From the sequence record PZ445489.1: a stretch of 64,000 nucleotides of DNA. One strand, given 5' to 3'. Made by a program: the position numbers and the translations under genes. This document shows positions 1,785-64,000 of the stretch, in pieces (position 1 is the stretch's first letter; every line of letters starts with the position of its first letter). The notes below the pieces were generated by a model. That model was not told the DNA's origin. It saw only the letters and a list, made by a program, of their open reading frames with translations, and searched no databases. Origin of the DNA: a phage.

Positions 1785-1877
1785 ATTTAATCTCCTCTTG
1801 GTAAGTAAGTATAACTTCAGTGTTTCTTCTCTAACTTACCAATATATTATATCAAAATATTGGGATAATAGCAAATA

Positions 1878-2207
1878 CTATTTATAAGTATGAAGTAATT
1901 TACGCATTTCATTACGCTGCTTTTCTAGTACCCGAAATTCTTCATCTATACGCAGAAAAGCACCTAACACTTTCATAGATTGCTCAGTATTTTCTACAAC
2001 AGCCCAATCATAAGTTAGATACACCTCTTGACCTGTATCTTTTACTTTAAAGAAAATATAAGATGCAGGTAATTTAGGATCACCAAATAAATGAAAATCC
2101 TTCCGTTTATTAAGGGACTCTAGTACTGTAAACAGCTCTAGTTTAATCTCTTCGTGTGTTATACTATCGTATACTGGAACATCTTCATAAATATATACAT
2201 ATTCCAT
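1878..2207 (-). CDS. hypothetical protein (109 aa)
   Basis: ORF between primase and polymerase genes, same strand, tight spacing. Confidence 0.5.
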   Translation of the reverse strand: MEYVYIYEDVPVYDSITHEEIKLELFTVLESLNKRKDFHLFGDPKLPASYIFFKVKDTGQEVYLTYDWAVVENTEQSMKVLGAFLRIDEEFRVLEKQRNEMRKLLHTYK

Positions 2208-2233
2208 AGTAGCTCCTCAGTTATTTAGGACTA

Positions 2234-3124
2234 TTATACCAAATCTTTAAGCGATTCAGCAACTAAAATTTCAATACGTTTTGCCAACATATCGATCTCT
2301 TCTTTATTTAAATCACCTGGATCTTTGCCTTCAGGCAGGAGGAAGTTAGCAACTACAGGTGTTAAACGCGTTTTTGTACGAATTAGCTTAGCCAATGCTT
2401 GTGCAGCTTTATTACCAGAAGCATCATTATCTAGTAAGATAACAACAACTTTTACCCCAGCAATAATATAAGGACTGAACTTATCTGCAATGTTATCCGA
2501 AGTAAACTGATGTGTACCAAAGCAGCAAGAAGCATAGTCTATACCATTATCCTCTAGGTTCAGCATATCAAAGATACCTTCAACTAGAATAAGAACTGGA
2601 GTATTATATCGTACAGGGAAAATTGGTGGTGAAACTTGTTTTGGTTTTACTAAGTATTTAGGAGGGGCAGAACTGTTTATAGAACGACCCAAAAATAGGA
2701 TATTGCGTCCAACAGCATCTGTGATTGGGAATACAATTCTGCCTTCCCAGTCTGCTTGGTGTTGGAAAGCAAAATATTTCTTCAAGGTCTTAGAACTTAT
2801 ACCTCGGAAATCACCTTCGAAAAGGTAAGCAGATTCAGGAATTGCAAGATTCGTAGATCCATTCCTAATCTCTGAAATCTTTTTACGTACCTGTGATAGT
2901 CTTGGGGACTGCCGGTACTGAGTCTCATTAAAATAATGGTAAATGCTCGGTATACCTTTACCGAAGCCACAACTCAAGCAGTGCATAATACCTGTTTCAG
3001 GATCAATACGCAAACTTGGGTGTTTATCGTCATGATCTGGATTGAGACAACAGATGAGGATGTCCCCACCTGTGTCTTTATATTCAATGCCTTTCAGATC
3101 AAGTAGTTCTGTTATTCTACTCAT
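2234..3124 (-). CDS. DNA primase (DnaG-like, CHC2 zinc finger + Toprim)
   Basis: CCLNPDHDDKHPSLRIDPETGIMHCLSCGFGKG zinc-binding motif; Toprim motifs VLILVEG and VVVILLDNDASG. Confidence 0.85.
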   Translation of the reverse strand: MSRITELLDLKGIEYKDTGGDILICCLNPDHDDKHPSLRIDPETGIMHCLSCGFGKGIPSIYHYFNETQYRQSPRLSQVRKKISEIRNGSTNLAIPESAYLFEGDFRGISSKTLKKYFAFQHQADWEGRIVFPITDAVGRNILFLGRSINSSAPPKYLVKPKQVSPPIFPVRYNTPVLILVEGIFDMLNLEDNGIDYASCCFGTHQFTSDNIADKFSPYIIAGVKVVVILLDNDASGNKAAQALAKLIRTKTRLTPVVANFLLPEGKDPGDLNKEEIDMLAKRIEILVAESLKDLV

Positions 3125-4593
3125 ATATCGCTGGCCTGTTCACCTGTTGAATTTTCAGTTTTATCTTTCTTAGCACGTTTAGGTTGAGCCGACTTATCCT
3201 TCTCAATAGGGATAACGAACTCAGCTTCCATTTGAGATATGTCTTCCATTGCTAGGTTAGTTGTATTATCCATTCGCAGAGTTTCCCAGTTCATCTTAGG
3301 CATAAACTTCACGCTATCAGAAGAACGAGTCTTAACGAAGTCAAACATAATAGCACCTTGACCATTATCAGCTTTTGCAGCATTAAGATTAGCAGCCATG
3401 TCTGCGGAGTCAAGAATCCCCTTTGACATACGTGTTCTACCATCTTGATCGATCTGGTAAGGAGCTACACCAGCCACGTTATGTTTCTGGCAGATAGATT
3501 TGAAAGATGAGCTAACAACCATCTGTTCTTTCCAGTCATACATATCAATGGTTTTAGAGTCTGGAAGTCGGGTTTGGTTAATATAGTCCAGTAAAGCTAC
3601 TGTAACTTTATCACCATATCTAGCAACTAATTTATTTAATTCTACGTCAACTGTTGTAATGGACAGTTCGGGGTCATAAACAATAATCATAGGAGTATGT
3701 AGTTCATATCCCTCTATTAGCTTACTCTCCATATCGTAGAAATCACTCATCTTAGCCATTGTGTACTGTTTAACGAAGCTATCGAAAAGCTCTTCACCAC
3801 CATTAAACATTCTAGCTCTAGTTCTGGCTAATCTCAACAGAGCTGCACCTTCTAGAGTATTATTACGCATTGCTAATGCTGATACACCAGCTAACATGGC
3901 TAGATTACGTCTAAATACTTCATGTTCTTTCATCTCAATTGAGAAGTATGGAGCAATATCCCCATTCAAATATTGCTGAACCTGTATGTTTGAACAGATA
4001 ATGGATTTACCAGTACCACGCCAACCACCAAGCAGTAACGTTTCTGTGCGAGCTAAACCAATTTGAGCGTCGAACTCATTACAAATACCAAGAGCGATTA
4101 AGTTCAGTTTGGTATCTTCTTCTCTCTGGAAAATACGCATGTTATCTGCGTTGAATACTTTTCCAGTATTCGTTACTTTCTCTTCTAATTTTAAGTGAAG
4201 GGAGGCAACTCGGTTGAGAATTTCTCCCTGATCCAGCATTGTTAAATCTTGAAGCACGTCTGTTTCTAGAAGCTTCAGGAATAAATCCTGTGTATATTCG
4301 GCCTCTAGGACTTCAAGTGCCTGTTCCATGCTCACTTCTGGAATTTGAGTGTTAGCTAAGACGACTAGAGCTTGAGAAAGGCGGGCGTTCCTATTAGCTT
4401 CAAGCATAAGTGCGTCAATGGACGGCATTGTGTTATATTTTTTATAATAATTCTGGACGGCTTGGTAAATTGAGGAGAAAGCGTCATTAAAATGATCTTT
4501 ATGCAGTTTTGAGAATGTTTCCAATGCTATTTGCTTCTGTTCGGAAGCTAGAAGCATCTTCAACACTACAGCTTGCACGTTAAACAAGGTCAT
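3121..4593 (-). CDS. DnaB-like replicative DNA helicase
   Basis: Walker A-like GWRGTGKS, RecA-like C-terminal half; start taken at ATG 4593-4591 preceded by AAGGAG (ORF track extends to 4644). Confidence 0.6.
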   Translation of the reverse strand: MTLFNVQAVVLKMLLASEQKQIALETFSKLHKDHFNDAFSSIYQAVQNYYKKYNTMPSIDALMLEANRNARLSQALVVLANTQIPEVSMEQALEVLEAEYTQDLFLKLLETDVLQDLTMLDQGEILNRVASLHLKLEEKVTNTGKVFNADNMRIFQREEDTKLNLIALGICNEFDAQIGLARTETLLLGGWRGTGKSIICSNIQVQQYLNGDIAPYFSIEMKEHEVFRRNLAMLAGVSALAMRNNTLEGAALLRLARTRARMFNGGEELFDSFVKQYTMAKMSDFYDMESKLIEGYELHTPMIIVYDPELSITTVDVELNKLVARYGDKVTVALLDYINQTRLPDSKTIDMYDWKEQMVVSSSFKSICQKHNVAGVAPYQIDQDGRTRMSKGILDSADMAANLNAAKADNGQGAIMFDFVKTRSSDSVKFMPKMNWETLRMDNTTNLAMEDISQMEAEFVIPIEKDKSAQPKRAKKDKTENSTGEQASDI

Positions 4594-4621
4594 TCTCCTT
4601 TGCACGCTTTCGTGCCTTCTA

Positions 4622-4658
4622 AATGCAAAAAGGGGAAGGAGCATAGCCCCCTCCCCTT
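4622..4658 (-). terminator. hairpin + T-run (minus strand) downstream of 4676..5443 gene
   Basis: AAGGGGA/TCCCCTT stem with T-rich tail on minus strand. Confidence 0.4.
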
Positions 4659-4675
4659 AGGTTTAATTTACCAGA

Positions 4676-5443
4676 TTATTCAGCAGCCGCAGCTTTTGCA
4701 TCCAGTTTAGCACGCTTAGCGGCACCATCATAGTCCTTAGCAACCAGACCACGACGAGACAGCATAGATTTAACACCACGCTCAGACTTACCAGTTTTCT
4801 CAGCGATCTCAGCAACAGTCATGTTAACCAGATCCAGACCTTCTAGCAGATCTTCACGAGTTTTAGCACTTGAAGTTTCCTGTACCGGCATAGCAGCGAT
4901 ACGACCTTCACGAAGCAGGCTCAGAGCTTTACCACGGATCTGCTTGATATTACGACCGAAGTGAGCAGCGATAGCTTCAATAGTAGCACCAGCAACAACC
5001 TGATTAACAAAATCAGTTTCTTCATCCGGAGTGAAGGAACGAACAGCAGCAGCTTTTTCAGTTGGCTTAACAGAAGCGGTCATTTCTAGACTCAGGATCT
5101 TACCCTGTACCTGTTTAGCACCGAACTGACCACCAGCTACAGCAGCAGCGATTTCAGCATAGGTATACTGACCAGCATGAGCGTTCAGGAAATCAACCAG
5201 TTCAGCTTCCTGCTCAGGAGTCCACGGAGATTTCTGCACTTCGTTAGCTTTTTGTACTTCAAAACCTTCTTTACGCAGTTTAGAGCCAACAGAGCGAGCA
5301 GTAACATCTTTGCCAGTTTCAGCAGCCAGTTCAGCAGCGATAGCCGCTACTTGTTCTTGAGAGATTACAGCAACACCCAGAGCAGTGGCTTTTGCTTTCA
5401 GAGACTCGGTTACACCTTCTACGTTCCAGTTCAGTTTAGACAT
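4676..5443 (-). CDS. hypothetical Ala-rich protein with internal tandem repeat (possible DNA-binding protein)
   Basis: Two similar segments TPEQEAELVDFLNAHAG... and TPDEETDFVNQVVAGA...; position in replication module. Confidence 0.5.
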   Translation of the reverse strand: MSKLNWNVEGVTESLKAKATALGVAVISQEQVAAIAAELAAETGKDVTARSVGSKLRKEGFEVQKANEVQKSPWTPEQEAELVDFLNAHAGQYTYAEIAAAVAGGQFGAKQVQGKILSLEMTASVKPTEKAAAVRSFTPDEETDFVNQVVAGATIEAIAAHFGRNIKQIRGKALSLLREGRIAAMPVQETSSAKTREDLLEGLDLVNMTVAEIAEKTGKSERGVKSMLSRRGLVAKDYDGAAKRAKLDAKAAAAE

Positions 5444-6209
5444 TATTATTTTTCTCCAATAGTTCTTTAATCGACAGGATTTCTATCCCATTCGTTTCGG
5501 CTTTCTTATAAGATGAGGAAGAACGCTTCGATTCATCCTCACAGATTAGGTATTTGACGTCTTTGGTAACGGATTTCTTAACCGTATATCCTAGACCTTC
5601 TAAATAGTTTGTTGCATCCGTTCTATTTGCAAAATCTTGCAAAGATCCGGTAATACATACCGCGATTCCATTTGGCTGGGCAACTAATTCATCTGCAATG
5701 ACGGTTTTAGCTTTAGCACCAGTTGAGAATTTCCACGGTAGTTCGATAACATCCTTGCCTTGTGGGGAACTTAGCCAGGCTTTGTAGTTTTCTCCAGCCT
5801 TGCCGTCAGCCTTCACATCGTGGAAGCTAGTGCAATTTTGGGATAATTTCTTTGCTGCAACCTCTCCGATTAGGGGGATTCCTAAAGAACCGAGAACTGA
5901 ACCAAAGTCAATGTCTCCGCGAACTTTAGTGTTTAATTCGCTAATTAATTTAGCGGCAACCTTGCTACCCACTGCTCTAACCAAATCTTCTTCGGTTAGG
6001 TAAAATAGTTCTGAAATCTTCGTCAGCTCCAGCTTCTCAATAGTTTTTGGGCCAAAGCCCTTTAACTTCATTTTTGTACAAAAGTTCTCAATTAGCTTAC
6101 TTGATTGCGCTGGACAGTTGGACTTATTCCTACAGAATAATTGCCCGTTGACAAGATCTAGCTTAGAACCACAAGAGGGACATTGTGTTGGAATTTCGAT
6201 TTTCATCAA
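5436..6209 (-). CDS. ligB: NAD-dependent DNA ligase, C-terminal subunit (Zn finger, HhH, BRCT)
   Basis: CPSCGSKL...C..NKSNCP zinc ribbon, HhH-like GFGPKTIEKL, C-terminal BRCT-like segment GIAVCITGSL; separate ORF from the adenylation domain. Confidence 0.8.
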   Translation of the reverse strand: MMKIEIPTQCPSCGSKLDLVNGQLFCRNKSNCPAQSSKLIENFCTKMKLKGFGPKTIEKLELTKISELFYLTEEDLVRAVGSKVAAKLISELNTKVRGDIDFGSVLGSLGIPLIGEVAAKKLSQNCTSFHDVKADGKAGENYKAWLSSPQGKDVIELPWKFSTGAKAKTVIADELVAQPNGIAVCITGSLQDFANRTDATNYLEGLGYTVKKSVTKDVKYLICEDESKRSSSSYKKAETNGIEILSIKELLEKNNNV

Positions 6210-6236
6210 ATTTCTTCCTTATCAATTTATATAAAT

Positions 6237-6265
6237 ATTATAGCAAGTATTTAAGCATTTAGCAA
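6237..6265 (-). promoter_or_regulatory. early-type sigma70 promoter (minus strand) between ligase subunit genes
   Basis: minus strand TTGCTA-17 nt-TATAAT followed by conserved ATTTATATAAATTGAT leader. Confidence 0.6.
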
Positions 6266-6408
6266 CTACAATTTTAACTAACTTTGCTTACCCTCGCCAT
6301 AACTTTCTATCCCTCAACTGAATGATAATAGTATATACCTAAGCGGCGAAAATGTCAATAACCACTTTATAATTCCGATATGGTAGATGGGTAGCAAAGG
6401 GTTATGTA

Positions 6409-7383
6409 TTAATCGTATACTCGCTCTACTATGCACGGGATTACACCACCAGCACGAATTACTCGAATCTGGCAACCGATCTCTAGATCGAGAGAGTTAA
6501 TATAATCAACGTTATTAAGAGTCGCTTTAACAATTGTAGCGTCATCAATAATTACCGGTTCGAAATAACCAACAGGAGTTACTTTACCAGAAGCCCCTAC
6601 CTGCCATTCAACTTTAGTAAGAGTTGTAATCTCGCCTTCTTCATCCTCTTTAATAGCGAATGCCCCACGAGGGAATTTATTAGTCCAGCCTTCTCGGAAG
6701 AATTTGTTGTTGTCATTAATACGAACAACTTTACCGTCCGTCGGAATCCATTTAAAGAAGGAACGCACATTAACAACTGTTAAGAAATCTTCATTCTCTA
6801 GCCAGAGCATATCTTTTAAATATGCTTCTGTAATACCTACAGACTCAGCAGAACATTGGATACCATAAGCAACGAAGATTAAACCACCTTCCCCGATACG
6901 TTGTACGAAATCATCACTATCTTTGAGGTTAATAGCACCAGAGGCAAAGTTACGTTTATTTTCTACTTCTTTTGTAATTAGAACTTCACCAGTGATTTGA
7001 GTAGGTACTTTTTGGGAAATCTTTTTAGGGATGTTCAGCAATCTTACGTTGCTTGTGACATCATTCCCTAGAATACCATTACCACGAGTTAGTGCTTGAA
7101 CAAATTCTCCATTAATATATAACAGAGAAATTGCACAACCATCTAACTTATCAGTTTCTACTTGACCTAATGGGTTAAATGGGGGTTTATCTCCACGATT
7201 ATAATAAACTTTCTGTAAAGAATACATACGATACAGATGTGGAATATCACCCTTAGGCCCGATCTCTTCTTCTAGTGGGAAGCGTTTTACCAGGCAATCA
7301 TACTCCTCATCAGAGATTAAAGACATACCTTGATAATATGCTTCTTGACAGCGTTTAATAAATTCTTTTACATTATTCATCAT
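6409..7383 (-). CDS. ligA: NAD-dependent DNA ligase, N-terminal adenylation subunit
   Basis: KxDG adenylation motif (ETDKLDGCAIS), ligase-like downstream motifs. Confidence 0.8.
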   Translation of the reverse strand: MMNNVKEFIKRCQEAYYQGMSLISDEEYDCLVKRFPLEEEIGPKGDIPHLYRMYSLQKVYYNRGDKPPFNPLGQVETDKLDGCAISLLYINGEFVQALTRGNGILGNDVTSNVRLLNIPKKISQKVPTQITGEVLITKEVENKRNFASGAINLKDSDDFVQRIGEGGLIFVAYGIQCSAESVGITEAYLKDMLWLENEDFLTVVNVRSFFKWIPTDGKVVRINDNNKFFREGWTNKFPRGAFAIKEDEEGEITTLTKVEWQVGASGKVTPVGYFEPVIIDDATIVKATLNNVDYINSLDLEIGCQIRVIRAGGVIPCIVERVYD

Positions 7384-7582
7384 CGGCGATTTCCATCTTG
7401 AGTTCTTTATTATATTGTGTAACCATATCCATCAAATCAGCAGATTCTTTCAGAAACGCATCTTTGTACACCTTTTGATTTACTGTGCCTATGCTATCTT
7501 GATAATTAATGCGTGCTGTGGAAAGTAGATTAAGTTTTGCTTGAATCTTGGGAAGTGTTACTTTCATAATTGATCCTCTCAT
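7373..7582 (-). CDS. hypothetical protein (69 aa)
   Basis: ORF directly downstream of a conserved promoter (7597-7625, minus). Confidence 0.45.
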   Translation of the reverse strand: MRGSIMKVTLPKIQAKLNLLSTARINYQDSIGTVNQKVYKDAFLKESADLMDMVTQYNKELKMEIADDE

Positions 7583-7596
7583 TAATTTATATAAAT

Positions 7597-7625
7597 ATTA
7601 TATAACAAAACTGAGTTGAAAGCAA
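7597..7625 (-). promoter_or_regulatory. early-type sigma70 promoter (minus strand)
   Basis: minus strand TTGCTT-17-TATAAT. Confidence 0.55.
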
Positions 7626-7652
7626 ATACATTTATAAAGAAAAAGCCAAGAA

Positions 7653-7961
7653 CTAGGCATTCTTGGCTTTGAGTTCTTCAGCTCGTTTCTGTACTTCATG
7701 TAAAACCTCAGATTCGCTAAGAATCTGTGTAAACGCATAGAAAAGCTGTGATGTTGTTTCCAGGGTGTAAGGAAAAGAGAAGCCAGATTTCGTTGGAAAC
7801 CATTCATCATTAATATCAAGAAGCCAGTAACGAATACCCATGTATAGATTCCCACGAAATTCAGATACTGTTAATCTTACTTGTTCCCCCTCCTTCTCCC
7901 AAAGTATGATGGACTGGTCATCAACGTGTCCTTCATAGTTTTGATTTACCTGTTCGCTCAT
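7653..7961 (-). CDS. hypothetical protein (102 aa)
   Basis: ORF in minus-strand gene series. Confidence 0.5.
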   Translation of the reverse strand: MSEQVNQNYEGHVDDQSIILWEKEGEQVRLTVSEFRGNLYMGIRYWLLDINDEWFPTKSGFSFPYTLETTSQLFYAFTQILSESEVLHEVQKRAEELKAKNA

Positions 7962-8011
7962 TTACATATCCCAAATACACAAAAAGCCCCATATAGGGGC
8001 TAATTGGTTTC

Positions 8012-8308
8012 TTATCGGCCTACTGGAGAAGCACGATCTAACTCTGATTGGAGGCTAGTCACACGACGGACTTTCTCGACAGGAATAAAACGGAAACTAT
8101 CATTAGTACGAGAGAAGACAAGAATTTCATCATCTTTCGCTTTACGAATACGTTCACGTTTAATACGCTCAGCCAGATATTTATCTTGGGCTGGATCAAA
8201 TTCCATCGTACCCTGAAGGTACGTGGTTCCTTTCTGACGAAGTTTCTCGTAATGAAGATAAAACTCACCAAATTTTTCGCACTGTGCAATAATTTCAGCT
8301 TTAGTCAT
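8012..8308 (-). CDS. hypothetical protein (98 aa)
   Basis: ORF in minus-strand gene series. Confidence 0.5.
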   Translation of the reverse strand: MTKAEIIAQCEKFGEFYLHYEKLRQKGTTYLQGTMEFDPAQDKYLAERIKRERIRKAKDDEILVFSRTNDSFRFIPVEKVRRVTSLQSELDRASPVGR

Positions 8309-8345
8309 AGCTATAGTTCCTTTTGTTGGTGGATTTATCTAAAAA

Positions 8346-8756
8346 TTACTTAGTGATAGCTCGGATTGCTTCTGCCAGATGAGCGGCCGCTTTACCAGTC
8401 AGTTTGTCGATAATTGCATCATCCAGAAAATCTGGTGCTAAGCCAGCATCAGAGAATGCTGCGCGAAGGTCGGCATGGGCTTGAGCTTTGGAGGTACGAG
8501 AACCACCGGAAGCTTTTTCTCCAGTAGATGCGCTAGATTTAGAAGTAGAACCAGCAGCTTTCTTAATATACAAACCTGCTTTAGTCAGCTTCATACGAAA
8601 ACCGTTCGGAGTTACACCATTTTCCTGGGCAATTTCGCTAACAATTTCCATGCTAACACCCGGACGTTCATCCTCTGGGAATTGCTCCATACGAGCAACG
8701 TATTCGGAAGACATTTTTTCGAACAGTTCATCAGTCCACTGAGTTGGAGTAGTCAT
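8346..8756 (-). CDS. hypothetical protein (136 aa)
   Basis: ORF with conserved promoter upstream (minus strand, ~8790-8830). Confidence 0.55.
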   Translation of the reverse strand: MTTPTQWTDELFEKMSSEYVARMEQFPEDERPGVSMEIVSEIAQENGVTPNGFRMKLTKAGLYIKKAAGSTSKSSASTGEKASGGSRTSKAQAHADLRAAFSDAGLAPDFLDDAIIDKLTGKAAAHLAEAIRAITK

Positions 8757-8862
8757 ATTTTATATTTCCTTAATTAAGAATTAAACAGAATAGTTCTTTC
8801 AAACTATGAGAATATTATATCAAGAATTGTAGGATTAAGCAACTGAAATTTTTCGGTAATTG

Positions 8863-9132
8863 CTACACATCTAGCTCAACAATCTCCCAATCATCTGCTA
8901 GAATTTCTTCTAAAGTTAACTCTACATCTTGCTTATGTGATCGTTTAAAATTTTCAAAAATACCTGTGGGCAATGGTGCAAAACTTTTGATAGTATCATT
9001 GTCAACATTAAACTCAAAAAGAAGCATAAAGTTTTTATCGTTTTTCCAGCAATCTCGCTGAAGATATTTTATGTCTCCAGCTTTAAGCAAATCTGTTAGC
9101 TTACTCACGACGTTTTCCTTTTTCTTTATCAA
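8863..9132 (-). CDS. hypothetical protein (89 aa)
   Basis: ORF in minus-strand gene series. Confidence 0.5.
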   Translation of the reverse strand: MIKKKENVVSKLTDLLKAGDIKYLQRDCWKNDKNFMLLFEFNVDNDTIKSFAPLPTGIFENFKRSHKQDVELTLEEILADDWEIVELDV

Positions 9133-9805
9133 GTTTCAGGGCAGCCTTAACAGCCTCATTAATCAACGTAATAATTTCTTCACGAGTCCACTTATACCCT
9201 AGAGATTTTACGTCAACCCCTAACTTTTCCAGATGTTTAACAGAAGCCAGCTCGTAATTCATATAATGAACGTTCTGTTGTTTGCTTTCTGATAGAAGCC
9301 ATACACGGTAACAACCAACAGGATTATCCATTGCTTTTTTGATTTCACCAATACACTGGTATCCAGGAACCCAAACAAGTTCTCCAACCTCAAATTCTTC
9401 TGCCACAGCATCGTCAGGAATAATTGGAGGATTCAATGGATCTACAATATCGTTCAAACGAAGTAGAGCACCATATCGTTCCAGAACAGATTTAACCATT
9501 GCTACAGAGCGGTAATTACGATCGGCAATTTCTTCAAAAGAATCACCAGATAGGTACTGTTCAATAACGTTGGCCAACTCAATACCTTCAATGAGTGTAC
9601 CACGTTTCTTTTTCTTCATTTCGGCAACTTGAATCTGGCGGTCTTGCCACTCTTCAATCATCCTTTCCATAGTCGGATTGGAAGATACGCCGAGCATTTC
9701 ACAAGCTGCTTTCTTGGTACCACCGTTCTCCAGATGCTCTATAACCTTTTTAAAGACTTCATCAGGGATTTCATGGATATGTTTCTTTCTGCGAGAACCA
9801 GCCAT
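9101..9805 (-). CDS. helix-turn-helix DNA-binding protein
   Basis: N-terminal HTH-like GGTKKAACEMLGVS; conserved promoter upstream on minus strand (~9815-9860). Confidence 0.5.
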   Translation of the reverse strand: MAGSRRKKHIHEIPDEVFKKVIEHLENGGTKKAACEMLGVSSNPTMERMIEEWQDRQIQVAEMKKKKRGTLIEGIELANVIEQYLSGDSFEEIADRNYRSVAMVKSVLERYGALLRLNDIVDPLNPPIIPDDAVAEEFEVGELVWVPGYQCIGEIKKAMDNPVGCYRVWLLSESKQQNVHYMNYELASVKHLEKLGVDVKSLGYKWTREEIITLINEAVKAALKLDKEKGKRRE

Positions 9806-9874
9806 ATTTAAACTCCTCTCTCAAATTTATGAATCTATTATACAGAAAAATTTTCCTGAAAGCAAATAAAATTT

Positions 9875-10117
9875 TTACGATTCCTTGAGCAGAGAAGAAA
9901 GTTCAGCATATACTTTATCTAACTCAAACCCTATGCGAAGGGATACGTTAGTCCTCCGTTGTTTAAGTAACCATTCGGATATGTTAGGGATGCCAGCTAA
10001 TCTGTGTGGTACCACCCTACATAGCTTTTCCGAAGTATCATAAACAGGAACTTTACGTTCTTTTACTGGAAACTTCCTTGTTTCCCATTTTTTATTCTTC
10101 ACTGTCATTTCTAGCAC
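9875..10117 (-). CDS. hypothetical protein (80 aa)
   Basis: ORF overlapping end of upstream 955-aa gene. Confidence 0.4.
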   Translation of the reverse strand: MLEMTVKNKKWETRKFPVKERKVPVYDTSEKLCRVVPHRLAGIPNISEWLLKQRRTNVSLRIGFELDKVYAELSSLLKES

Positions 10118-12959
10118 CTAGCTCTGACATTGCTTCATCATGCATATGTTTTTCCTCGTCAGTCATGAACTTATAAGGAATTGGCATACACTCGATTTTA
10201 CAATAGGTTCTGTACCAGTCTACAATATTTTCAGTGTTCATATCCTTACCAATACCCATCATACCAAGATACATTCTTGCATATTTTGGGTTAGCACTCT
10301 GACCTGTTTTAAGGAAGAAATCTTTCTTCTTACCTTTCAGAGCTTCTATGAATGGTTTGATAGTGACATTTGAACACTTCTTAATATCTTCCCAGAACAT
10401 CTCGTGCATTTTATGGAAGAATGCCGCTCGATCATTCGGTTTATCCTTGATATACTGTTCAACATGCTCAACTGTTACATCTTTAATAGACTCAAGATGA
10501 TAATAGCGAACAAGAAGTAGTTTAGCTTCATACGCATCCGCATGACGTGGAGCACAATAATCCGGAGTTGAATGTAGAATAGCTTTGATTCGCTCTTCTG
10601 TGTATTCTTTACCAGCACCTTCAATAGTTCCCCAGCTTTCGCTGAAAATATCAATAGTTGCACCCTGATCAAGCAAGTAATAACGTAAAGTACTAGTATA
10701 GTTCCTAGATTCCAGCTCTCTGCGACGTGCGTATAATTGCTGTGCTAACTCCGGCCAACCTTCATCAATATTATATTGCTCAGAACCTGCAGAGAACCCA
10801 CTAGTGGATTTATCAATAAAATAATAGATATTCTGAGCACCACGGTCGCGCCTGATTGCTTGGAAACGCATGTTTGGCGCTTGGTTACTAGTTCTAGTGA
10901 TAACGAATACGTTATCAAAATAGTTGAAGTCAACACCACTCGTTACGGATGGACTACATAATAAGCAATCAATTTGTTGATCAATTAGCTCATTAGTTGT
11001 GTAATCCAGAATACGTCTAATATCTACATCAGATGTAGAGTTTGAGTGGATTTCCTTAACTAACGCACCCGTATTACGACGCAATGCCATGCCCTTCTCA
11101 TTCAGTTCATCTGGACCACAGTCAGATACTAGGATAGATTTCTCACCCATCTCTAGAGAAGTCTGAAGTGCAACCCAAATACTGGACTCATCAGGGAACT
11201 CATAAGCATGAGCTTTTGACAGCATTTTACGGTGATGATTGTAAAATGCAACCGGTTTATCAAACTCAATCAAAGAACCATATGCTTCAATTGTTTCTGC
11301 ACTAATATCCCCATCAGATAATATAATGATTTTTGCAGTTGCAAGAATGTCCCGAAGAACCTGAATACATTCACGACGTTGTTTAACAACCGGGGCGAAT
11401 AATAGGTCATTCATTACAGCGTCACATTCATCGATAAAGATTGCATCAATTTGACCAATAAAACTCTTGAACTTATGCAAAGAGTGAATAGTTGTGGACA
11501 TACGGTCAATAGCACCACGCTTAAAATTAAGCATATCTACAGACTTATCATATTGTCCTGCACTAAATTTCTTAGCATTTGAAGATACCAGTGCTCGAGT
11601 ATTGGTAATTGCTAAGAAATTACCTTTAATAACTCCTGAATCCAGCCAACGCACAACCGCTGTAGTTTTACCTGTACCTAGACTTGCTTTTACAAAAGTC
11701 ATATAACCTTCTGGTGGCACGGTATTTAATTTCAAGAAGTTATCAGTTTCTAGAGAATTAGTTTCTAGCTTTTTAAGTGGAATACCTTTTAAAACATCTG
11801 GTATATCACGTTTAGAATTATTAACAAACGCTTTCAGAGCCTGTTTACGACCGTTGTTAAAATAATCTTGAATATTACGACTATTATCTTTAGTTGCAAT
11901 ATACTCAGATAAAGCTGGGCGGATCTCCTTCTCTAGCCAGCCAAAATCTACACCATCCTCTAGTGCTCGGTGATAGAGTTTAGGAATAATACGTAGATAT
12001 ACACCATCCTCAGCTTCTTCTAATTCGCTGATAGTTTCCTCTACTTTATCAGAGGCAGCTTTTTTACCTTTAATTTGGTCGAGTAAAGAATAGAACTCCT
12101 CCTTAAACTCACCTCTAGTTGTTTCATAGTCAACTAGATTATTAGGTAAATTTACTTTTGAGCCTTTAACAAATACCAGACGTGAAGTACCCTCCGCTTT
12201 AAACGGATCTACTATACCATCAGTAAATAAAGGATCTGCAAAGTAATGGAGCTGTACGGAAGAGTAATAAGCTAAGTCGGCAATATCAAAGCCATACTTT
12301 TGTCTACTACTTTCGTTGATAGATGTAAATAAGAACTTGATTTGACCCTGAGTTACTTTAACATTAGATTCTAGTATTAAGTGCATTCGGATACCTGGTT
12401 TTAGCCCAGCCGAAGATGACGCATGAGCGATAAACCCTGCATCAAGAGGAAACATATCCTCACTAATACTATTTAACATCCTAATAATATGTCGAGCCAT
12501 GCCAACAAGATCAAACTTGTTACAACCTCCTGTATCTACAATACCATCCACATCCATTGCGATTATATGACTTGGATTAGATACATTAAAGTTGCCCTTC
12601 TTACGTCGCACATTATTTTTAGGTGCAAGACATCGACCTCGTACCGCAACGATATGAGGGTCAGACGTTAAACGTCTCATAAGAGGAAGCATTTCTACTA
12701 GGGTTTGAGGATCAACTTCATCAATTACATCAAACTTGAAGGGCATTGAAGCTGGTTTACCTTCAGGATGCTTTGAGGAAAATCTTTTAGCAAAAAGATA
12801 ATCTTCTGCTTTAACTTCTCGCCAATTGCCTGTGGCTAAATCGCGATGAAATCCTGCATGACCTTGTAGGATTGAAAACACAACAATACTCCTGTATTGG
12901 AAATGAAATAAGTTTTCTTTAGGACTATTCAGAAAGAATAGAACAACTGTTACTGTCAA
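10092..12959 (-). CDS. putative replication origin-binding / helicase-like P-loop NTPase (955 aa)
   Basis: Walker A LGTGKTTAV and Walker B-like IFIDECD in central region; large size; position in replication module. Confidence 0.55.
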   Translation of the reverse strand: MTVTVVLFFLNSPKENLFHFQYRSIVVFSILQGHAGFHRDLATGNWREVKAEDYLFAKRFSSKHPEGKPASMPFKFDVIDEVDPQTLVEMLPLMRRLTSDPHIVAVRGRCLAPKNNVRRKKGNFNVSNPSHIIAMDVDGIVDTGGCNKFDLVGMARHIIRMLNSISEDMFPLDAGFIAHASSSAGLKPGIRMHLILESNVKVTQGQIKFLFTSINESSRQKYGFDIADLAYYSSVQLHYFADPLFTDGIVDPFKAEGTSRLVFVKGSKVNLPNNLVDYETTRGEFKEEFYSLLDQIKGKKAASDKVEETISELEEAEDGVYLRIIPKLYHRALEDGVDFGWLEKEIRPALSEYIATKDNSRNIQDYFNNGRKQALKAFVNNSKRDIPDVLKGIPLKKLETNSLETDNFLKLNTVPPEGYMTFVKASLGTGKTTAVVRWLDSGVIKGNFLAITNTRALVSSNAKKFSAGQYDKSVDMLNFKRGAIDRMSTTIHSLHKFKSFIGQIDAIFIDECDAVMNDLLFAPVVKQRRECIQVLRDILATAKIIILSDGDISAETIEAYGSLIEFDKPVAFYNHHRKMLSKAHAYEFPDESSIWVALQTSLEMGEKSILVSDCGPDELNEKGMALRRNTGALVKEIHSNSTSDVDIRRILDYTTNELIDQQIDCLLCSPSVTSGVDFNYFDNVFVITRTSNQAPNMRFQAIRRDRGAQNIYYFIDKSTSGFSAGSEQYNIDEGWPELAQQLYARRRELESRNYTSTLRYYLLDQGATIDIFSESWGTIEGAGKEYTEERIKAILHSTPDYCAPRHADAYEAKLLLVRYYHLESIKDVTVEHVEQYIKDKPNDRAAFFHKMHEMFWEDIKKCSNVTIKPFIEALKGKKKDFFLKTGQSANPKYARMYLGMMGIGKDMNTENIVDWYRTYCKIECMPIPYKFMTDEEKHMHDEAMSELGARNDSEE

Positions 12960-19752: not shown

Positions 19753-19753
19753 T

Positions 19754-60158: not shown

Positions 60159-60343
60159 TGGAAACTCTTTTTCTTTTAATGCTCGTAGGTTCCCTGCTAG
60201 TTATACTAGCACTTCTACTAATCTGTAATATTCTTAATAATAAGAATTTAGAGTTAAAGTGTGAGAACCAAATCCTTAACCGTGAACTTAAACAATATAA
60301 CCTAGCAGCTCATAAGCTGTTAGACAAACTGGAGAATAAATAA
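60158..60343 (+). CDS. hypothetical membrane protein (61 aa)
   Basis: ORF. Confidence 0.4.
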   Translation: METLFLLMLVGSLLVILALLLICNILNNKNLELKCENQILNRELKQYNLAAHKLLDKLENK

Positions 60344-61694: not shown

Positions 61695-62037
61695 AGTATA
61701 TATTCTTGCAAATAGGGATCTGACGAAGATCCCTAAGAGAACAAAGATCGGTATTAGTATGAATCCACATAATAGGATTCAAACACTAAACTTAGATAAG
61801 ATAGTTTATCGTGGTTTTGACGATTTATACGTGTATGGGATCTATGAAACCCATAATCCTAGAGATCTAGAAGCCGCTGCACATATCTACTTTAAGAAAT
61901 ACCGCTGTAATTTAAAGGGATTCGAAGGATGCACAGAGTTCTTTGATATTCACCCACAACTTGCAGAACGATTCCTATTAAATACAGGAGCCAAGAAGAT
62001 TTACGACCCCAATATCAATCTCGAAGGAGATGTATAA
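61681..62037 (+). CDS. hypothetical protein (118 aa)
   Basis: ORF. Confidence 0.5.
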   Translation: MSLYKVYILANRDLTKIPKRTKIGISMNPHNRIQTLNLDKIVYRGFDDLYVYGIYETHNPRDLEAAAHIYFKKYRCNLKGFEGCTEFFDIHPQLAERFLLNTGAKKIYDPNINLEGDV

Positions 62038-62054
62038 ACGTTAACAAAATCTTC

Positions 62055-62084
62055 TTGACAACTCATTGCGGAACATGTTATAAT
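62055..62084 (+). promoter_or_regulatory. strong sigma70-type promoter reading into ORF-free repeat region
   Basis: TTGACA-18-TATAAT. Confidence 0.55.
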
Positions 62085-62359
62085 AATCTCATAGATTAAA
62101 AACAACTCTTGTTTTGAACTCTAGGGGCGATGATTATTACACTTAGTATTACGTCTATACGTTGCGACAGCACGAGTATAGATCTAATTACTAAGTCTTC
62201 CGTAATACTCACGCGCCCCACGAGGAATCTCACATGAAATGGGGGTATATTTACTTTTAAATAACTAAAAATATTTAAAGGCAATATCTGTGTTCAAGAT
62301 GATACACCTGTTGCCGCTCATCTGCTAGGATGGCACAACACTTTCTAGTAGACTCCTAA

Positions 62360-62563
62360 GTTTCTAGGAATAGTTGAGCACTAACTCTAGAGTTTACATT
62401 AAACTTTAAATCTGTTTCTCTAGCCAACTCAGGCGGTTTTCATTGTTCCTAGAAACTCTAGCAATAGGCGGTTATAGGGAGGGCGGTTATTTCTAGAAGA
62501 CATTTTTTGAAAACACATTTCCAGAAATTACTGTCGGATTTGCACACTGCATTTCTAGAAATT
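62360..62563. repeat. cluster of palindromic (A)TTTCTAGAAA-like sites (~5 copies)
   Basis: TTTCTAGGAA 62361, TTCCTAGAAA ~62446, TTTCTAGAA 62489, ATTTCCAGAAAT ~62517, ATTTCTAGAAAT ~62551. Confidence 0.6.
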
Positions 62564-63133
62564 TATGGTCGGATTTGCACAAACGCCTAAGTTTTTAGGG
62601 ACACATAATCTCCTGAAAATAGCAGCATTATTTCGGGCCGAAGGCCCATGATTGCCTGAGTTTTTAGAGCCACAGAAATTTTCACTTGTCAAGCTATTTT
62701 GCCCCGTTTAGCTAATAAAATTTTACTTTTTCTGCACCTATCTCAAATTAACCCAAATTATCTCACATCTTCCCCAAAATCCCCGCAAATCAGGTGCTCC
62801 GCACCAAACATGCGCCCCATCCTTCTAGCCTCCCAAATTTCTCTCACTCTCTCATCTTCTCCTCAAACCCACACAATCACACACCCTCCAATCGAAGTCA
62901 CAAAAATCTTGTCGGATTCGCACAAATAAACCCATGTCGGATTTGCACATATTCTAGCTAATTCCACAGGATTGATGCGCAGCATCGGATTGCTGGAGTT
63001 TTTGGGAAAATTCATTGTCGGATTTGCACACTATAAAAATTTTTCGGGTCGGATTTGCACACTACCAAAAATTGTCGGATTCGCACATACATGCCCGCAC
63101 GTAACACCCGTGGAGCAATGTCGGATTTGCACA
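62533..63133 (+). repeat. 8 direct copies of 14-bp motif GTCGGATT(T/C)GCACA
   Basis: Copies start at 62533, 62568, 62911, 62936, 63017, 63048, 63074, 63120, all in same orientation, variable spacing. Confidence 0.8.
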
Positions 63134-63138
63134 AAAGC

Positions 63139-63156
63139 GCAGGGCAATTGCCCTGC
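63139..63156. repeat. 18-bp perfect palindrome GCAGGGCAATTGCCCTGC
   Basis: Self-complementary. Confidence 0.75.
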
Positions 63157-63164
63157 TAGCCTGA

Positions 63165-63300
63165 ATGCGAATGATAATAAGAATCATTATCATTTAAAAA
63201 GCGAAATGAGAACTATTCAAAAAGTGAAATGATTCTCATTTAGGAAAGGAAATGATTATCGGTTAGAAAGTGAAATGCGAATGAGAATAATTCTCATTTA
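63165..63300. repeat. series of inverted repeats built on GAAATGA / TCATTTC and AATGAGAAT / ATTCTCATT half-sites
   Basis: ATGATAATAAGAATCATTATCAT, GAAATGATTCTCATTT, AATGAGAATAATTCTCATT. Confidence 0.65.
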
Positions 63301-63331
63301 AGAATGGAAGTGAGAAACACTGTTATTTAAG

Positions 63332-63340
63332 TTATCCACA
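63332..63340 (+). promoter_or_regulatory. DnaA box (TTATCCACA)
   Basis: Exact 9-mer match to consensus. Confidence 0.5.
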
Positions 63341-63404
63341 GACTTATTAACAGCACGATTTGACTTGACAGAATCCTAGCCATTTTGAGGCGTTATTAAC
63401 AGAC

Positions 63405-63413
63405 TTATCCACA
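63405..63413 (+). promoter_or_regulatory. DnaA box (TTATCCACA)
   Basis: Exact 9-mer match; flanked by repeated GACTTAT / TTATTAACAG motifs. Confidence 0.5.
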
Positions 63414-63421
63414 GCTTATCC

Positions 63422-63441
63422 TACTGTATAAATATACAGTA
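63422..63441. promoter_or_regulatory. LexA-box-like palindrome TACTGTATAAATATACAGTA
   Basis: CTG-N10-CAG with AT-rich spacer, 9-bp arms perfectly self-complementary. Confidence 0.55.
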
Positions 63442-63644
63442 TTCCTACGTAGTGAATAATTCTAATATACCGCTAAAACGTCCTAGATCGCATTCTAACG
63501 CGTTTAATTTTGGTGGGGATACTAAAACAAGGGCAAAATTGGAGGAGGCTTAAAAATTAGTTAGCCCGCTAACGATCACACAAGTCGACACGTAACACCC
63601 TAATCATTAGCAGGCTAACCATCGCGGGCGCGCTCAAATGAGAA

Positions 63645-63669
63645 TGATTCTCATTTGAGAATTGGGGGC
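63645..63669. repeat. 25-bp near-perfect palindrome TCAAATGAGAATGATTCTCATTTGA
   Basis: Same half-site family as 63165-63300 repeats. Confidence 0.65.
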
Positions 63670-63697
63670 ACTCCCTGGTAGTTGCGCCCCGTTATTA

Positions 63698-63892
63698 TTA
63701 ATCCGGTAATTGATGCGTGATCTTCTCCTCTTCCCCATAGGAATCGACCAAATGCTGATAATAACCATCGGCATCATAAATAACGCTATCATATTCCCCC
63801 CGCTCGACCGCTTGCCGGTTTTCCGGCGTATCGGGCACGTAAAAAACATCAACCATTGTACTGATTTTGGTTACAACAATTTTATTGCTCAT
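63698..63892 (-). CDS. hypothetical protein (64 aa)
   Basis: ORF only; beyond the repeat region, opposite strand. Confidence 0.3.
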   Translation of the reverse strand: MSNKIVVTKISTMVDVFYVPDTPENRQAVERGEYDSVIYDADGYYQHLVDSYGEEEKITHQLPD

Positions 63893-64000
63893 TGCGCCAC
63901 CTTTCGAAACGCTGTTTCAATACTATCCGCAGTGGATTGAATATACGCGCCTTTCATTACTAGGCGCTCGGTGCATACCTTGCGGAAAATATTAATAAAA

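What the first reader, a model, noticed from the sequence alone, without database searches (positions are those of the whole stretch)
62300..63680. 1.4-kb ORF-free array of repeats, palindromes and host-factor boxes at the right end of the window
No credible ORF spans this stretch, yet it holds at least four distinct motif families: eight same-orientation copies of GTCGGATT(T/C)GCACA, about five palindromic TTTCTAGAAA sites, a family of GAAATGA/TCATTTC inverted repeats including a 25-bp palindrome, and an 18-bp perfect palindrome GCAGGGCAATTGCCCTGC. It also carries two exact DnaA boxes and a LexA-box-like site, and a strong TTGACA promoter reads into it. This density of protein-binding-like sites suggests an origin, partition/centromere-like site or the DNA-injection pause region described for T5-type phages, but the motif set cannot be assigned from sequence alone.
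Basis: partly seen in the sequence, partly recalled or inferred. Interest (0 to 1): 0.8.

Follow-up and report, generated by a model that had tools for sequence, protein, structure and literature searches.

The report
T5-type phage injection-stop repeat region
This ORF-free stretch is the well-known repeat-rich "injection stop signal" region at the inner edge of the terminal repeat of a T5-like phage: every motif has a name in the T5 GenBank record, although how the region halts DNA entry is still unsolved.

Summary
The region holds eight exact same-strand GTCGGATTYGCACA copies (0 expected by chance), an 18-bp palindrome, a GAAATGA palindrome family, two TTATCCACA boxes, a 19/20 LexA-consensus palindrome, a CTAG-palindrome cluster and an upstream consensus promoter.

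It is not new. The window is the reverse complement of phage T5 at about 8.8-11 kb. [quoted passage not shown] Davison calls it "Repeat Region 3". About 550 phage records share it, and it is more widely conserved than the neighbouring coding DNA. By homology, the terminal-repeat boundary falls at window 62666/62667, inside the repeat-D array.

Origin and partition readings are not supported: no DUE, few GATC sites, no IHF sites and no initiator gene.

The mechanism remains inferred. The invariant core across Escherichia-to-Vibrio phages is a DnaA-box trio abutting the LexA-type box, next to Fur-box-like palindromes. This fits a host-protein landing pad (Davison's DnaA brake model). Repeat D, which flanks the genome terminus, may instead serve packaging.

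Verdict: already known, low interest. The LexA and Fur leads are testable.

The parts
62055..62084 (+). Consensus sigma-70 promoter TTGACA-N18-TATAAT with a TG extension. It lies in unique DNA and reads toward the terminal repeat.
   Evidence: 12/12 matches. Conserved in 10 of 13 Demerecviridae.
62124..62220 (+). Long stable hairpin directly downstream of the promoter; a candidate structured early RNA. The sequence is hypervariable between phage lineages and nearly invariant within one allele.
   Evidence: z -5.8 to -6.0 here; -2.4 to -5.9 in 9 other phages. (within-allele invariance). No Rfam match.
62292..62345 (.). Conserved block GTTCAAGATGATACACC...CACAACACTTTC, function unknown.
62361..62561 (.). 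Cluster of CTAG-centred palindromes (TTTCTAGAAA type: 62361, 62446, 62490, 62518, 62552) interleaved with GGCGGTTAT repeats (62432, 62467, 62482).
   Evidence: GGGCGGTTAT x2 is conserved as far as Slocum, KKP_3711 and DU_PP_V.
62533..62581 (+). Direct repeats D8 (62533-62546) and D7 (62568-62581), lying outside the terminal repeat.
62635..62666 (+). Hairpin GGGCC-GAA-GGCCC followed by a T run, ending exactly at the terminal-repeat boundary.
   Evidence: Sugarland-type phages carry a different hairpin (CACGGTG..CACCGTG) at the same place.
62666..62667 (.). Predicted right boundary of the left terminal repeat (...GAGTTTTTA|GAGCCACAG...). The terminal repeat runs from 62667 to beyond 64000.
   Evidence: Mapped from T5 position 10139. 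The boundary falls at the same homologous base, within 2 nt, in T5, Sw2, phiR2-01, Slocum and KpGranit.
62700..62900 (+). C-rich, G-poor tract (C 76, G 14) holding direct repeats A3 (62742-62758) and A2 (62762-62780).
62911..63133 (+). Direct repeats D6 to D1 (62911, 62936, 63017, 63048, 63074, 63120). Also a terminator-like hairpin at 62980-62995 and the near-invariant CACGTAAC motif at 63098-63105.
63137..63144 (+). GCGCAGGG, the sequence of T5 'major single-stranded nick 1, 7.9%'. The predicted nick is 5' of GCGC (63136|63137) on the + strand.
   Evidence: The motif is conserved in 11 of 13 phages.
63139..63156 (.). Palindrome J, GCAGGGCAATTGCCCTGC. On the - strand it is followed by GCTTTTGTGC, which looks like a terminator.
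   Evidence: The stem is kept with a different sequence or loop in Eps7, Sw2 and KKP_3711.
63167..63305 (.). Direct repeat C / palindromes E-I family (AAATGAGAATnATTCTCATTT). The sites are Fur-box-like.
   Evidence: Fur PWM: 63173 scores 21.4 bits, and 5 of the 7 window hits of at least 12 bits lie in this family. Conserved in 11 of 13 phages.
63309..63347 (+). Inverted repeat C' with a DnaA-box pair: TTATCCACA (63332-63340) and TTATTAACA (63344-63352), 3 bp apart.
   Evidence: 39/39 identical to T5.
63348..63398 (.). 51-bp 'spacer' between IRC' and IRD'.
   Evidence: Same length as between the annotated T5 features.
63393..63424 (+). DnaA-box trio TTATTAACA-gac-TTATCCACA-gc-TTATCCTAC (inverted repeat D' / direct repeat B1). 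All three boxes face the same way, with 12- and 11-bp periodicity.
   Evidence: TTAT..CA is invariant in 13 phages.
63422..63441 (.). Palindrome D = LexA-consensus box TACTGTATAAATATACAGTA, overlapping the third DnaA-like box.
   Evidence: ACTG.ATA..TA.ACAGTA is invariant in 13 phages including a Vibrio phage. The 66-bp core is found in 541 records.
63633..63659 (.). 27-bp perfect palindrome CTCAAATGAGAAT-G-ATTCTCATTTGAG, an extra member of the direct repeat C family. It lies in a segment that replaces T5 palindrome C/terminator.
   Evidence: I8. (allele shared with pork27 and Kenya-K20). Fur PWM 15.8 bits.
63698..63892 (-). Homologue of T5.017, the last gene of the rightward pre-early operon. 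It marks the inner edge of the non-coding region.

Best explanation
The stretch is the non-coding boundary between first-step-transfer and second-step-transfer DNA in a T5-like (Tequintavirus) phage. [quoted passage not shown] SHOWN: homology, synteny and a one-to-one correspondence of the motifs to the named T5 repeats. Strong conservation across about 550 phage genomes. A terminal-repeat boundary inside the repeat-D array.

INFERRED: the region is a composite of modules.
(a) Hairpin and T-run elements that end the convergent pre-early and early transcripts.
(b) A landing pad for host proteins: two same-orientation DnaA-box arrays 61 bp apart, a consensus LexA box overlapping the last DnaA box, and 4-6 Fur-box-like palindromes. 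This pad is loaded as soon as the DNA reaches the cytoplasm. Following Davison's model, it holds the DNA at the membrane and so pauses transfer at about 8% until the pre-early proteins A1 and A2 release it.
(c) The GCGC nick site plus the palindrome J hairpin.
(d) An array of 8 asymmetric 14-bp repeats (repeat D). Its sequence changes with phage lineage, so it is more likely read by a phage protein, and it flanks the site where the genome end is made.

I put about 0.95 on the identity, about 0.3-0.35 on host-protein binding being the actual brake, and about 0.2 on LexA and Fur truly binding and taking part.
For: Identity.
- The window is 85% identical overall, and more than 90% in the repeats, to T5 8.8-11 kb.
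- T5 record AY543070 annotates LTR 1..10219, iss 9140..10149 and the major nick.
- AY587007 names DRD1-9, palJ, DRC1-4, palE-I, IRC'/IRD', DRB1-2 and palD. All map onto the window motifs at 13/14 to 39/39 identity.
- Published descriptions of the same region: Davison, bioRxiv 10.1101/866236; PMC10644984; bioRxiv 10.64898/2026.04.02.716235.

Conservation.
- 550 records match the region, 361 of them over at least 80% of its length. They include 81 Klebsiella, 9 Vibrio and 4 Pectobacterium phage records.
- The adjacent coding 1.4 kb gives 441 records, only 55 over at least 80%, with 3 Klebsiella and 0 Vibrio.
- The 66-bp DnaA/LexA core occurs in 541 records, typically twice per genome copy.

Host-factor pad.
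- The invariant columns across 13 phages of at least 5 lineages are TTAT..CA x3 and ACTG.ATA..TA.ACAGTA.
- The LexA consensus is matched 19/20.
- The two best Fur-PWM hits of the whole window fall in the repeat-C palindromes, and this recurs in 11 of 13 phages.

Repeat D and the terminus.
- The terminal-repeat boundary is at the same base, within 2 nt, in five phages, and is flanked by repeat-D copies on both sides.
- The repeat-D sequence varies by lineage: GTCGGATTTGCACA, ATCGGATATGCACA, ATCGGTTTTGCAC, and TAGAATCCGCAC in the Vibrio phage.
Against: - No functional test exists. A 2023 paper states that experimental studies of these sites are lacking.
- The DnaA brake is one author's untested hypothesis, and T5 itself lacks one of the eight boxes.
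- Binding of cytoplasmic proteins to DNA that has already entered does not obviously stop the DNA behind it.
- From my own knowledge: T5 ejects completely in vitro through purified FhuA, and T5 grows on recA cloning strains. LexA cleavage therefore cannot be required for second-step transfer.
- The LexA and Fur assignments rest on consensus and PWM similarity only. A conserved phage dimer (for example A2) could recognise the same palindromes.
- The relaxed DnaA consensus is not enriched window-wide.
- No IHF consensus site was found.
Confidence: 0.8

Rival explanations
1. Packaging or terminus-generation signal. The repeat-D array, the A repeats, the C-rich tract and the hairpin/T-run surround the point where the terminal repeat ends. 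In this reading they are the recognition site for the enzyme that makes the genome end. The design would resemble SPP1 pacL/pacR flanking pacC, or the lambda cosB R sites. The left end is injected first, so it was packaged last; packaging therefore starts at this boundary. This rival is complementary to an iss role for the other modules.
For: - The terminal-repeat boundary falls at the same homologous base (within 2 nt)...TTTTTA|GAGCCACAG, in T5, Sw2, phiR2-01, Slocum and KpGranit. Repeat-D copies in one orientation lie on both sides.
- Repeat D occurs nowhere else in the window apart from one 1-mismatch hit.
- Its sequence co-varies with phage lineage.
- The T5 left end TGTCCACTG and the reverse complement of the right boundary, ATCCACAG, share TCCAC in inverted orientation.
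Against: - No terminase-binding data exist.
- Repeats D1-D4 lie 350-470 bp from the boundary, next to the nick.
- Three annotated boundaries differ (Kenya-K20, chee158/pork27, IME260), so the positions in databases are noisy.
- This reading does not explain the DnaA, LexA and Fur-like modules.
Confidence: 0.3
2. Purely transcriptional control zone. In this reading the region is where the rightward pre-early and leftward early transcripts end. The DnaA, LexA and Fur-like sites are operators that tune phage promoters to host state. The 8% stop would be determined elsewhere.
For: - Convergent gene orientation, with hairpin and T-run elements on both strands.
- A conserved consensus promoter reads inward.
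- The second copy of the DnaA/LexA module sits between the divergent pre-early promoters T5P3 and T5P4 of T5.
Against: - No convincing promoter overlaps palD or the DnaA boxes. The best candidates score only 9/12, at the shuffle-expected rate.
- The extent and complexity of conservation exceed what terminators need.
- The position coincides with the measured first-step-transfer end.
Confidence: 0.2
3. Host-independent physical roadblock. The stop would be caused by the DNA itself (cruciform or hairpin extrusion at the many palindromes, the nick, pairing of the two inverted 131-bp repeats), or by a virion protein left bound to the repeat-D array that cannot pass the portal or tail.
For: - High density of perfect palindromes, and an 18-bp GC-rich hairpin exactly at the nick.
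- An inverted partner repeat lies 3.2 kb away in T5.
- From my own knowledge: the stop needs no phage protein synthesis.
Against: - From my own knowledge: in vitro ejection through FhuA goes to completion, and nick-less T5 mutants still show two-step transfer.
- The invariant positions fit the recognition rules of host proteins rather than stem strength.
Confidence: 0.15
4. Replication origin built from DnaA boxes plus iterons.
For: - Two exact DnaA boxes in ordered arrays.
- Eight iteron-like direct repeats.
- An AT-rich palindrome block.
Against: - No DUE 13-mer, and GATC is depleted at 1.4/kb against 3.6/kb.
- Repeat-D spacings of 25-81 bp are not helically phased.
- No adjacent initiator gene.
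- T5 origins were mapped near the genome centre, and the replication genes are not present during first-step transfer (Davison).
- The cumulative GC-skew minimum of the window lies at about 18-20 kb, not here.
Confidence: 0.05
5. Partition (centromere-like) site.
For: Only the clustered direct repeats.
Against: This is a virulent phage with a linear genome. No ParA or ParB type gene is adjacent. The homologous T5 region has a different documented context.
Confidence: 0.01

Closest known systems
Phage T5 injection stop signal region / 'Repeat Region 3' (GenBank AY543070 misc_feature 9140..10149; AY587007 repeats DRD1-9, palC-J, DRC1-4, IRC'/IRD'; Heusterspreute 1987, Wang 2005, Davison 2015/2020)
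   Same: - Same genomic position and flanking genes.
- More than 90% nucleotide identity in the repeat part.
- Same order and orientation of all modules.
- Same nick motif, and the same 51-bp spacing between the inverted repeats.
   Different: - 8 rather than 9 repeat-D copies (D9 has diverged).
- Three rather than four repeat-C copies (DRC3/palG absent).
- The T5 palC terminator segment is replaced by another allele carrying an extra 27-bp palindrome, shared with pork27 and Kenya-K20.
- Both exact DnaA boxes are present, whereas T5 has TTATCCCCA at one position.
E. coli oriC / datA / DARS-type DnaA-box clusters
   Same: Same-orientation 9-mers spaced 2-3 bp apart (11-12 bp period), mixing consensus and one-mismatch boxes. 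This is the arrangement that favours DnaA oligomers.
   Different: No DUE, no GATC cluster, no IHF site and no replication role expected. The boxes are duplicated as an inverted copy 3 kb away.
Terminase recognition arrays flanking a cut site (SPP1 pacL/pacC/pacR; lambda cosB R sites)
   Same: Several short asymmetric repeats on both sides of the point where the genome end is formed.
   Different: No binding data. The repeats extend more than 450 bp from the end. The ends here are long direct terminal repeats, not cos or headful ends.
Phage T7 staged genome entry
   Same: DNA entry pauses after a leading segment and needs newly made or host proteins to continue.
   Different: T7 uses transcription to pull the DNA in and has no comparable repeat or palindrome block. 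T5 needs A1 and A2.

Membership tests
T5-type iss region / Repeat Region 3 | Lies between the last rightward pre-early gene and the first leftward early genes, across the inner boundary of the left terminal repeat | tested here: met
   The T5.017 homologue is at 63698-63892 (-). A T5orf172-domain gene ends at 62037. The T5 LTR end maps to 62667.
T5-type iss region / Repeat Region 3 | Nucleotide homology to T5 9140-10409 | tested here: met
   85% over 2 kb, with near-identity in the repeats.
T5-type iss region / Repeat Region 3 | Named repeat set in the same order (DRD array, DRA, palJ, DRC/palE-I, IRC'-spacer-IRD' with DRB, palD) | tested here: met
   all mapped. DRD9, DRC3/palG and palC are missing or diverged.
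T5-type iss region / Repeat Region 3 | DnaA boxes in pairs 3 bp apart, with a fixed spacer between the inverted repeats | tested here: met
   63332/63344 and 63393/63405, each pair with a 3-bp gap. The spacer is 51 bp, as between the annotated T5 features. Davison counts it as 52.
T5-type iss region / Repeat Region 3 | Inverted partner copy (IRC-spacer-IRD) about 3 kb further into the terminal repeat | not testable with these tools
   That position lies beyond the end of the window. Relatives show two places per genome copy, and T5 has it at 6022-6152.
T5-type iss region / Repeat Region 3 | Strand-specific nick at the GCGC site (7.9%) | not testable with these tools
   The motif AAAA|GCGCAGGG is present at 63133-63144. 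A nick itself cannot be seen in sequence. The PhageTerm 'ends' of Seabear and Sugarland fall exactly on this motif.
T5-type iss region / Repeat Region 3 | Halts DNA transfer after about 8% of the genome until A1/A2 are made | not testable with these tools
   Requires infection experiments.
Replication origin (oriC-like or iteron type) | DnaA boxes next to an AT-rich unwinding element with 13-mers and a GATC cluster | tested here: not met
   no DUE-like 13-mer within the region, and only 2 GATC in 1.38 kb.
Replication origin (oriC-like or iteron type) | Adjacent initiator gene; helically phased iterons | tested here: not met
   No such ORF. Spacings are 25, 26, 31, 35, 46, 81 and 343 bp.
Partition centromere (parS/sopC type) | Repeat array next to parA/parB-type genes | tested here: not met
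   Neighbouring ORFs are a T5orf172 endonuclease-like gene and small pre-early ORFs. Only ORFs within about 2 kb were checked.
LexA (SOS) operator | CTGT-N8-ACAG palindrome close to TACTG(TA)5CAGTA | tested here: met
   19/20 match. CTG/CAG arms are invariant in 13 phages. Binding and regulation were not tested.
Fur box | Match to the 19-bp GATAATGATAATCATTATC-type iron box | tested here: inconclusive
   17/19 at 63173. The PWM from 11 published boxes (PMC10665472) gives 21.4 and 15.8 bits, within the leave-one-out range of real sites. This is similarity only.

The most novel reading that the evidence does not exclude
The invariant heart of the T5-family injection-stop region would be a composite operator for three host global regulators: a DnaA-box trio, an overlapping consensus LexA box, and an array of Fur-type boxes. 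It is conserved from Escherichia phages to Vibrio phages. On this reading the phage recruits abundant host DNA-binding proteins as the brake, or as a sensor of host state, for its two-step genome delivery. The LexA and Fur components are not mentioned in the iss literature I could read.
Probability: 0.2. Interest if true: 0.65.

Novelty: already known. Interest (0 to 1): 0.28.

Why it matters
As a discovery it adds little. The region has been sequenced and described since 1987, is annotated feature by feature in T5 GenBank records, and was compared across 25 phages by Davison.

It matters because the mechanism of the T5 two-step DNA transfer is still unknown after more than 50 years. The cross-genus comparison made here separates two classes of module:
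- Modules whose sequence is fixed regardless of host: the DnaA-box trio, the LexA-type palindrome and the Fur-like palindromes.
- A module that drifts with phage lineage: repeat D, which flanks the genome terminus.

That split yields concrete experiments in dnaA, lexA and fur hosts, and with module deletions or transplants.

Tried and rejected
- Rfam scan of 61500-64000 at E<=1: no match.
- IHF consensus WATCAANNNNTTR: none in the region.
- DUE 13-mers and GATC clustering for an origin: absent.
- Pfam on the two longest internal ORFs, the antisense ORF over the hairpin, and the T5.017 homologue: nothing. Only the upstream gene is T5orf172/MUG113.
- Promoter scan: apart from the 62055 promoter, the hits are at the level expected from shuffles. 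I therefore do not claim a LexA-controlled promoter.
- Covariation test on the long hairpin using five close relatives: uninformative, because the allele is almost invariant.
- A LexA-cleavage timer for second-step transfer: considered and rejected, because T5 grows on recA strains (my own knowledge).
- Fur titration: considered and rejected on copy-number grounds (inference).
- Davison 2015 (PMC4743489) and Heusterspreute 1987 are not held in the library. I therefore cannot exclude that LexA or Fur likeness was noted there. Searches for T5 with LexA found nothing relevant.
- Locus files L004 and later did not reach the Python sandbox, so I used the ungapped rows of alignment A2 instead.
Full report
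**Observation**

The 2-kb right end of the window was read directly and scanned for repeats.
- Eight exact copies of GTCGGATTYGCACA lie on the + strand at 62533, 62568, 62911, 62936, 63017, 63048, 63074 and 63120. No shuffle of the window gave a single match.
- TTTCTAGAAA occurs once exactly and four times with one mismatch between 62361 and 62561. These are 5 of the 13 such matches in 64 kb. The surrounding 250-bp bin has the highest CTAG count of the window.
- The GAAATGA/TCATTTC family is real (families D2, D5, D6 and I1-I8). It includes a 13+1+13 palindrome at 63633-63659.
- GCAGGGCAATTGCCCTGC is at 63139-63156.
- Two TTATCCACA boxes lie at 63332 and 63405.
- TACTGTATAAATATACAGTA at 63422-63441 matches the 20-bp LexA consensus at 19 positions. 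Only 0.01 matches are expected even at 3 mismatches.
- A 12/12 sigma-70 promoter with a TG extension lies at 62055-62084 and points into the region.
- The longest ORFs inside are 86 and 76 codons with TTG starts and no Pfam match.

**Identity**

Megablast of 62000-64000 against phage genomes hit 458 records, all T5-like, at about 8-10 kb from the left end and on the opposite strand.

T5 record AY543070 annotates this position as follows:
- left terminal repeat, 1..10219;
- a misc_feature 'injection stop signal (iss)', 9140..10149;
- a major single-chain interruption;
- no CDS between T5.017 and T5.018.

A pairwise alignment shows 85% identity overall and near-identity throughout the repeat part.

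T5 record AY587007 names the individual elements.
- direct repeats D8-D1 are the eight GTCGGATTYGCACA copies; T5's ninth copy has diverged here;
- palindrome J is the 18-bp palindrome, and it overlaps 'major single-stranded nick 1, 7.9%' (GCGCAGGG, window 63137-63144);
- direct repeat C and palindromes E-I are the GAAATGA family;
- inverted repeats C' and D', with direct repeats B1 and B2, carry the DnaA boxes;
- palindrome D is the LexA-like site.

The T5 LTR end (10139) maps to window 62667. DNA to the left of that point is unique and DNA to the right is terminal repeat.

The region is described in three sources I could read:
- Davison calls it 'Repeat Region 3' and the probable iss. He notes eight DnaA boxes in pairs and proposes a brake formed by membrane-bound DnaA (bioRxiv 10.1101/866236).
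- The BF23 genome paper states that experimental studies of these sites are lacking (PMC10644984).

**Conservation**

| Query | Records matched | Covered over at least 80% | Klebsiella | Vibrio | Pectobacterium |
|---|---|---|---|---|---|
| Non-coding region (62300-63700) | 550 | 361 | 81 | 9 | 4 |
| Adjacent coding 1.4 kb (60280-61680) | 441 | 55 | 3 | 0 | not listed |

The most distant hits all centre on window 63390-63490. A 66-bp query of that core finds 541 records, usually at two places per genome copy. This is the inverted partner Davison describes, which in T5 sits at 6022-6152 between the divergent pre-early promoters.

I aligned 13 phages: Tequintavirus, Epseptimavirus, Sugarlandvirus, Slocum, KKP_3711, Hongcheonvirus DU_PP_V and a Vibrio Pogseptimavirus. 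The invariant columns spell three tandem TTAT..CA units with 12- and 11-bp period, followed by ACTG.ATA..TA.ACAGTA. The fixed positions are therefore the DnaA-box core and the LexA half-sites, while the AT-rich centre of the palindrome varies.

The repeat-C palindromes keep the consensus TGAGAATnATTCTCA in all lineages, including the Vibrio phage.

Repeat D is different. It changes with lineage: GTCGGATTTGCACA, ATCGGATATGCACA, ATCGGTTTTGCAC and TAGAATCCGCAC.

**Host-factor likeness**

*Fur.* The Fur consensus is matched 17/19 at 63173-63191. Four of the seven window positions with at least 14/19 matches lie in this family. I built a PWM from the 11 Gram-negative iron boxes listed in PMC10665472.
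- Its two best scores of the whole window are 63173 (21.4 bits) and 63640 (15.8 bits).
- Five of the seven hits of at least 12 bits fall in 210 bp.
- Real sites score 5.5-24.7 bits in leave-one-out.
- Comparable hits recur in 11 of 13 phages.

*LexA.* Davison's paper mentions neither LexA, SOS nor Fur. Literature searches found nothing linking them to T5. The two older key papers could not be read.

These are leads, not demonstrations of binding.

**Terminal-repeat boundary**

The annotated ends of T5, Sw2, phiR2-01, Slocum and KpGranit fall at the same homologous base, within 2 nt...TTTTTA|GAGCCACAG.... This corresponds to window 62666/62667. Two features surround it:
- Just before the boundary lies a hairpin plus T run. 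Its stem sequence differs between T5-type and Sugarland-type phages.
- Repeat-D copies in one orientation lie on both sides of the boundary.

This suggests that repeat D, the A repeats and the C-rich tract may serve terminus formation or packaging rather than the injection stop, or in addition to it.

Two PhageTerm-based annotations, Seabear and Sugarland, place the 'repeat end' exactly at AAAA|GCGCAGG. This looks like the conserved nick being mistaken for a terminus.

**Alternatives rejected**
- Origin: no DUE 13-mer, GATC depleted, unphased repeat spacing and no initiator gene. According to Davison's citations, T5 origins map near the genome centre.
- Partition site: no par genes nearby, and this is a virulent linear phage.
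- IHF: no consensus sites.
- Rfam: nothing.

**Mechanism**

What is shown is identity, anatomy and conservation. What is inferred is function.

I favour a composite region with four parts:
- terminators for convergent transcription;
- a host-protein landing pad (DnaA arrays, the LexA box and the Fur-like boxes) that contributes to the pause at about 8%;
- the nick and hairpin;
- a repeat-D array read by a phage protein at the genome terminus.

The brake role of host proteins is at best one chance in three. From my own knowledge, in vitro ejection is complete, and T5 grows on recA hosts, so LexA cleavage cannot be the release trigger.

**Side observation**

The consensus promoter at 62055 is conserved in 10 of 13 phages. 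In each it is followed by a 100-140-nt very stable hairpin whose sequence differs completely between lineages (z -2.4 to -6.0). Within the window's own allele the hairpin is almost invariant across five relatives. It has no Rfam match and is not annotated in T5.

**Verdict**

The finding is a correct rediscovery of a known, annotated and still mechanistically unexplained element. Novelty: already known. Interest: low to modest.

Noticed in passing
window 62055-62290: A consensus TG-extended sigma-70 promoter is conserved in 10 of 13 Demerecviridae. In every phage it is followed by a 100-140-nt very stable hairpin (here 62124-62220; MFE -59.6 kcal/mol, z about -5.9). The hairpin sequence is unrelated between lineages, yet nearly invariant within this allele across 5 relatives. 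There is no Rfam hit and no annotation in the T5 records. It is a candidate early structured RNA, or a cassette-like variable hairpin.
   Followed up: partly
window 62666/62667; loci L002, L005, L008, L009, L017: The terminal-repeat boundary falls at the same homologous base (within 2 nt), ...TTTTTA|GAGCCACAG, in five phages of at least four genera. It sits just after a hairpin plus T run whose stem differs between lineages. The T5 left end (TGTCCACTG) and the reverse complement of this boundary (ATCCACAG) share TCCAC in inverted orientation.
   Followed up: partly
L016 1130-1145 (Seabear); L006 about 1857 (Sugarland): The PhageTerm-annotated 'terminal repeat ends' of these two records fall exactly on the conserved nick motif AAAA|GCGCAGG. 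The strand nick was probably mistaken for a genome terminus, so these repeats are likely annotated about 470 bp too short.
   Followed up: partly
window 63167-63305 and 63633-63659: The repeat-C palindromes score as Fur boxes: 17/19 to the consensus, with the best two PWM hits of the whole window. The same holds in phages of Pectobacterium and Vibrio. This is not mentioned in the iss literature I could read.
   Followed up: partly
window 62700-62900: Strongly strand-asymmetric tract (76 C against 14 G on the + strand) just inside the terminal repeat. It includes direct repeats A2/A3 and GGGGATTTTGGGG on the opposite strand.
   Followed up: no
window 62292-62345: A 54-bp block (GTTCAAGATGATACACC...CACAACACTTTC) is almost perfectly conserved among Tequintavirus and Epseptimavirus phages. 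It sits between the hypervariable hairpin and the CTAG-palindrome cluster. Function unknown.
   Followed up: no
window 62432-62490: GGCGGTT(A/T)T repeats (three copies here). The pair GGGCGGTTATAGGGAGGGCGGTTAT is conserved as far as Slocum, KKP_3711 and DU_PP_V.
   Followed up: partly
window 63098-63105 and 63589-63600: CACGTAAC(ACCC), between repeats D2 and D1, is nearly invariant in 13 phages. It is duplicated in the allele-specific segment near 63590.
   Followed up: no
window 61681-62037: A 118-aa T5orf172/MUG113-domain ORF (homing-endonuclease-like) ends just before the promoter. T5 has a different gene (ORF018) at this position.
   Followed up: partly
window about 18000-20000: The cumulative GC skew has its minimum here, with a sign change from about -0.17 to positive values. 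This may mark a switch in gene orientation or a replication-related inflection.
   Followed up: no
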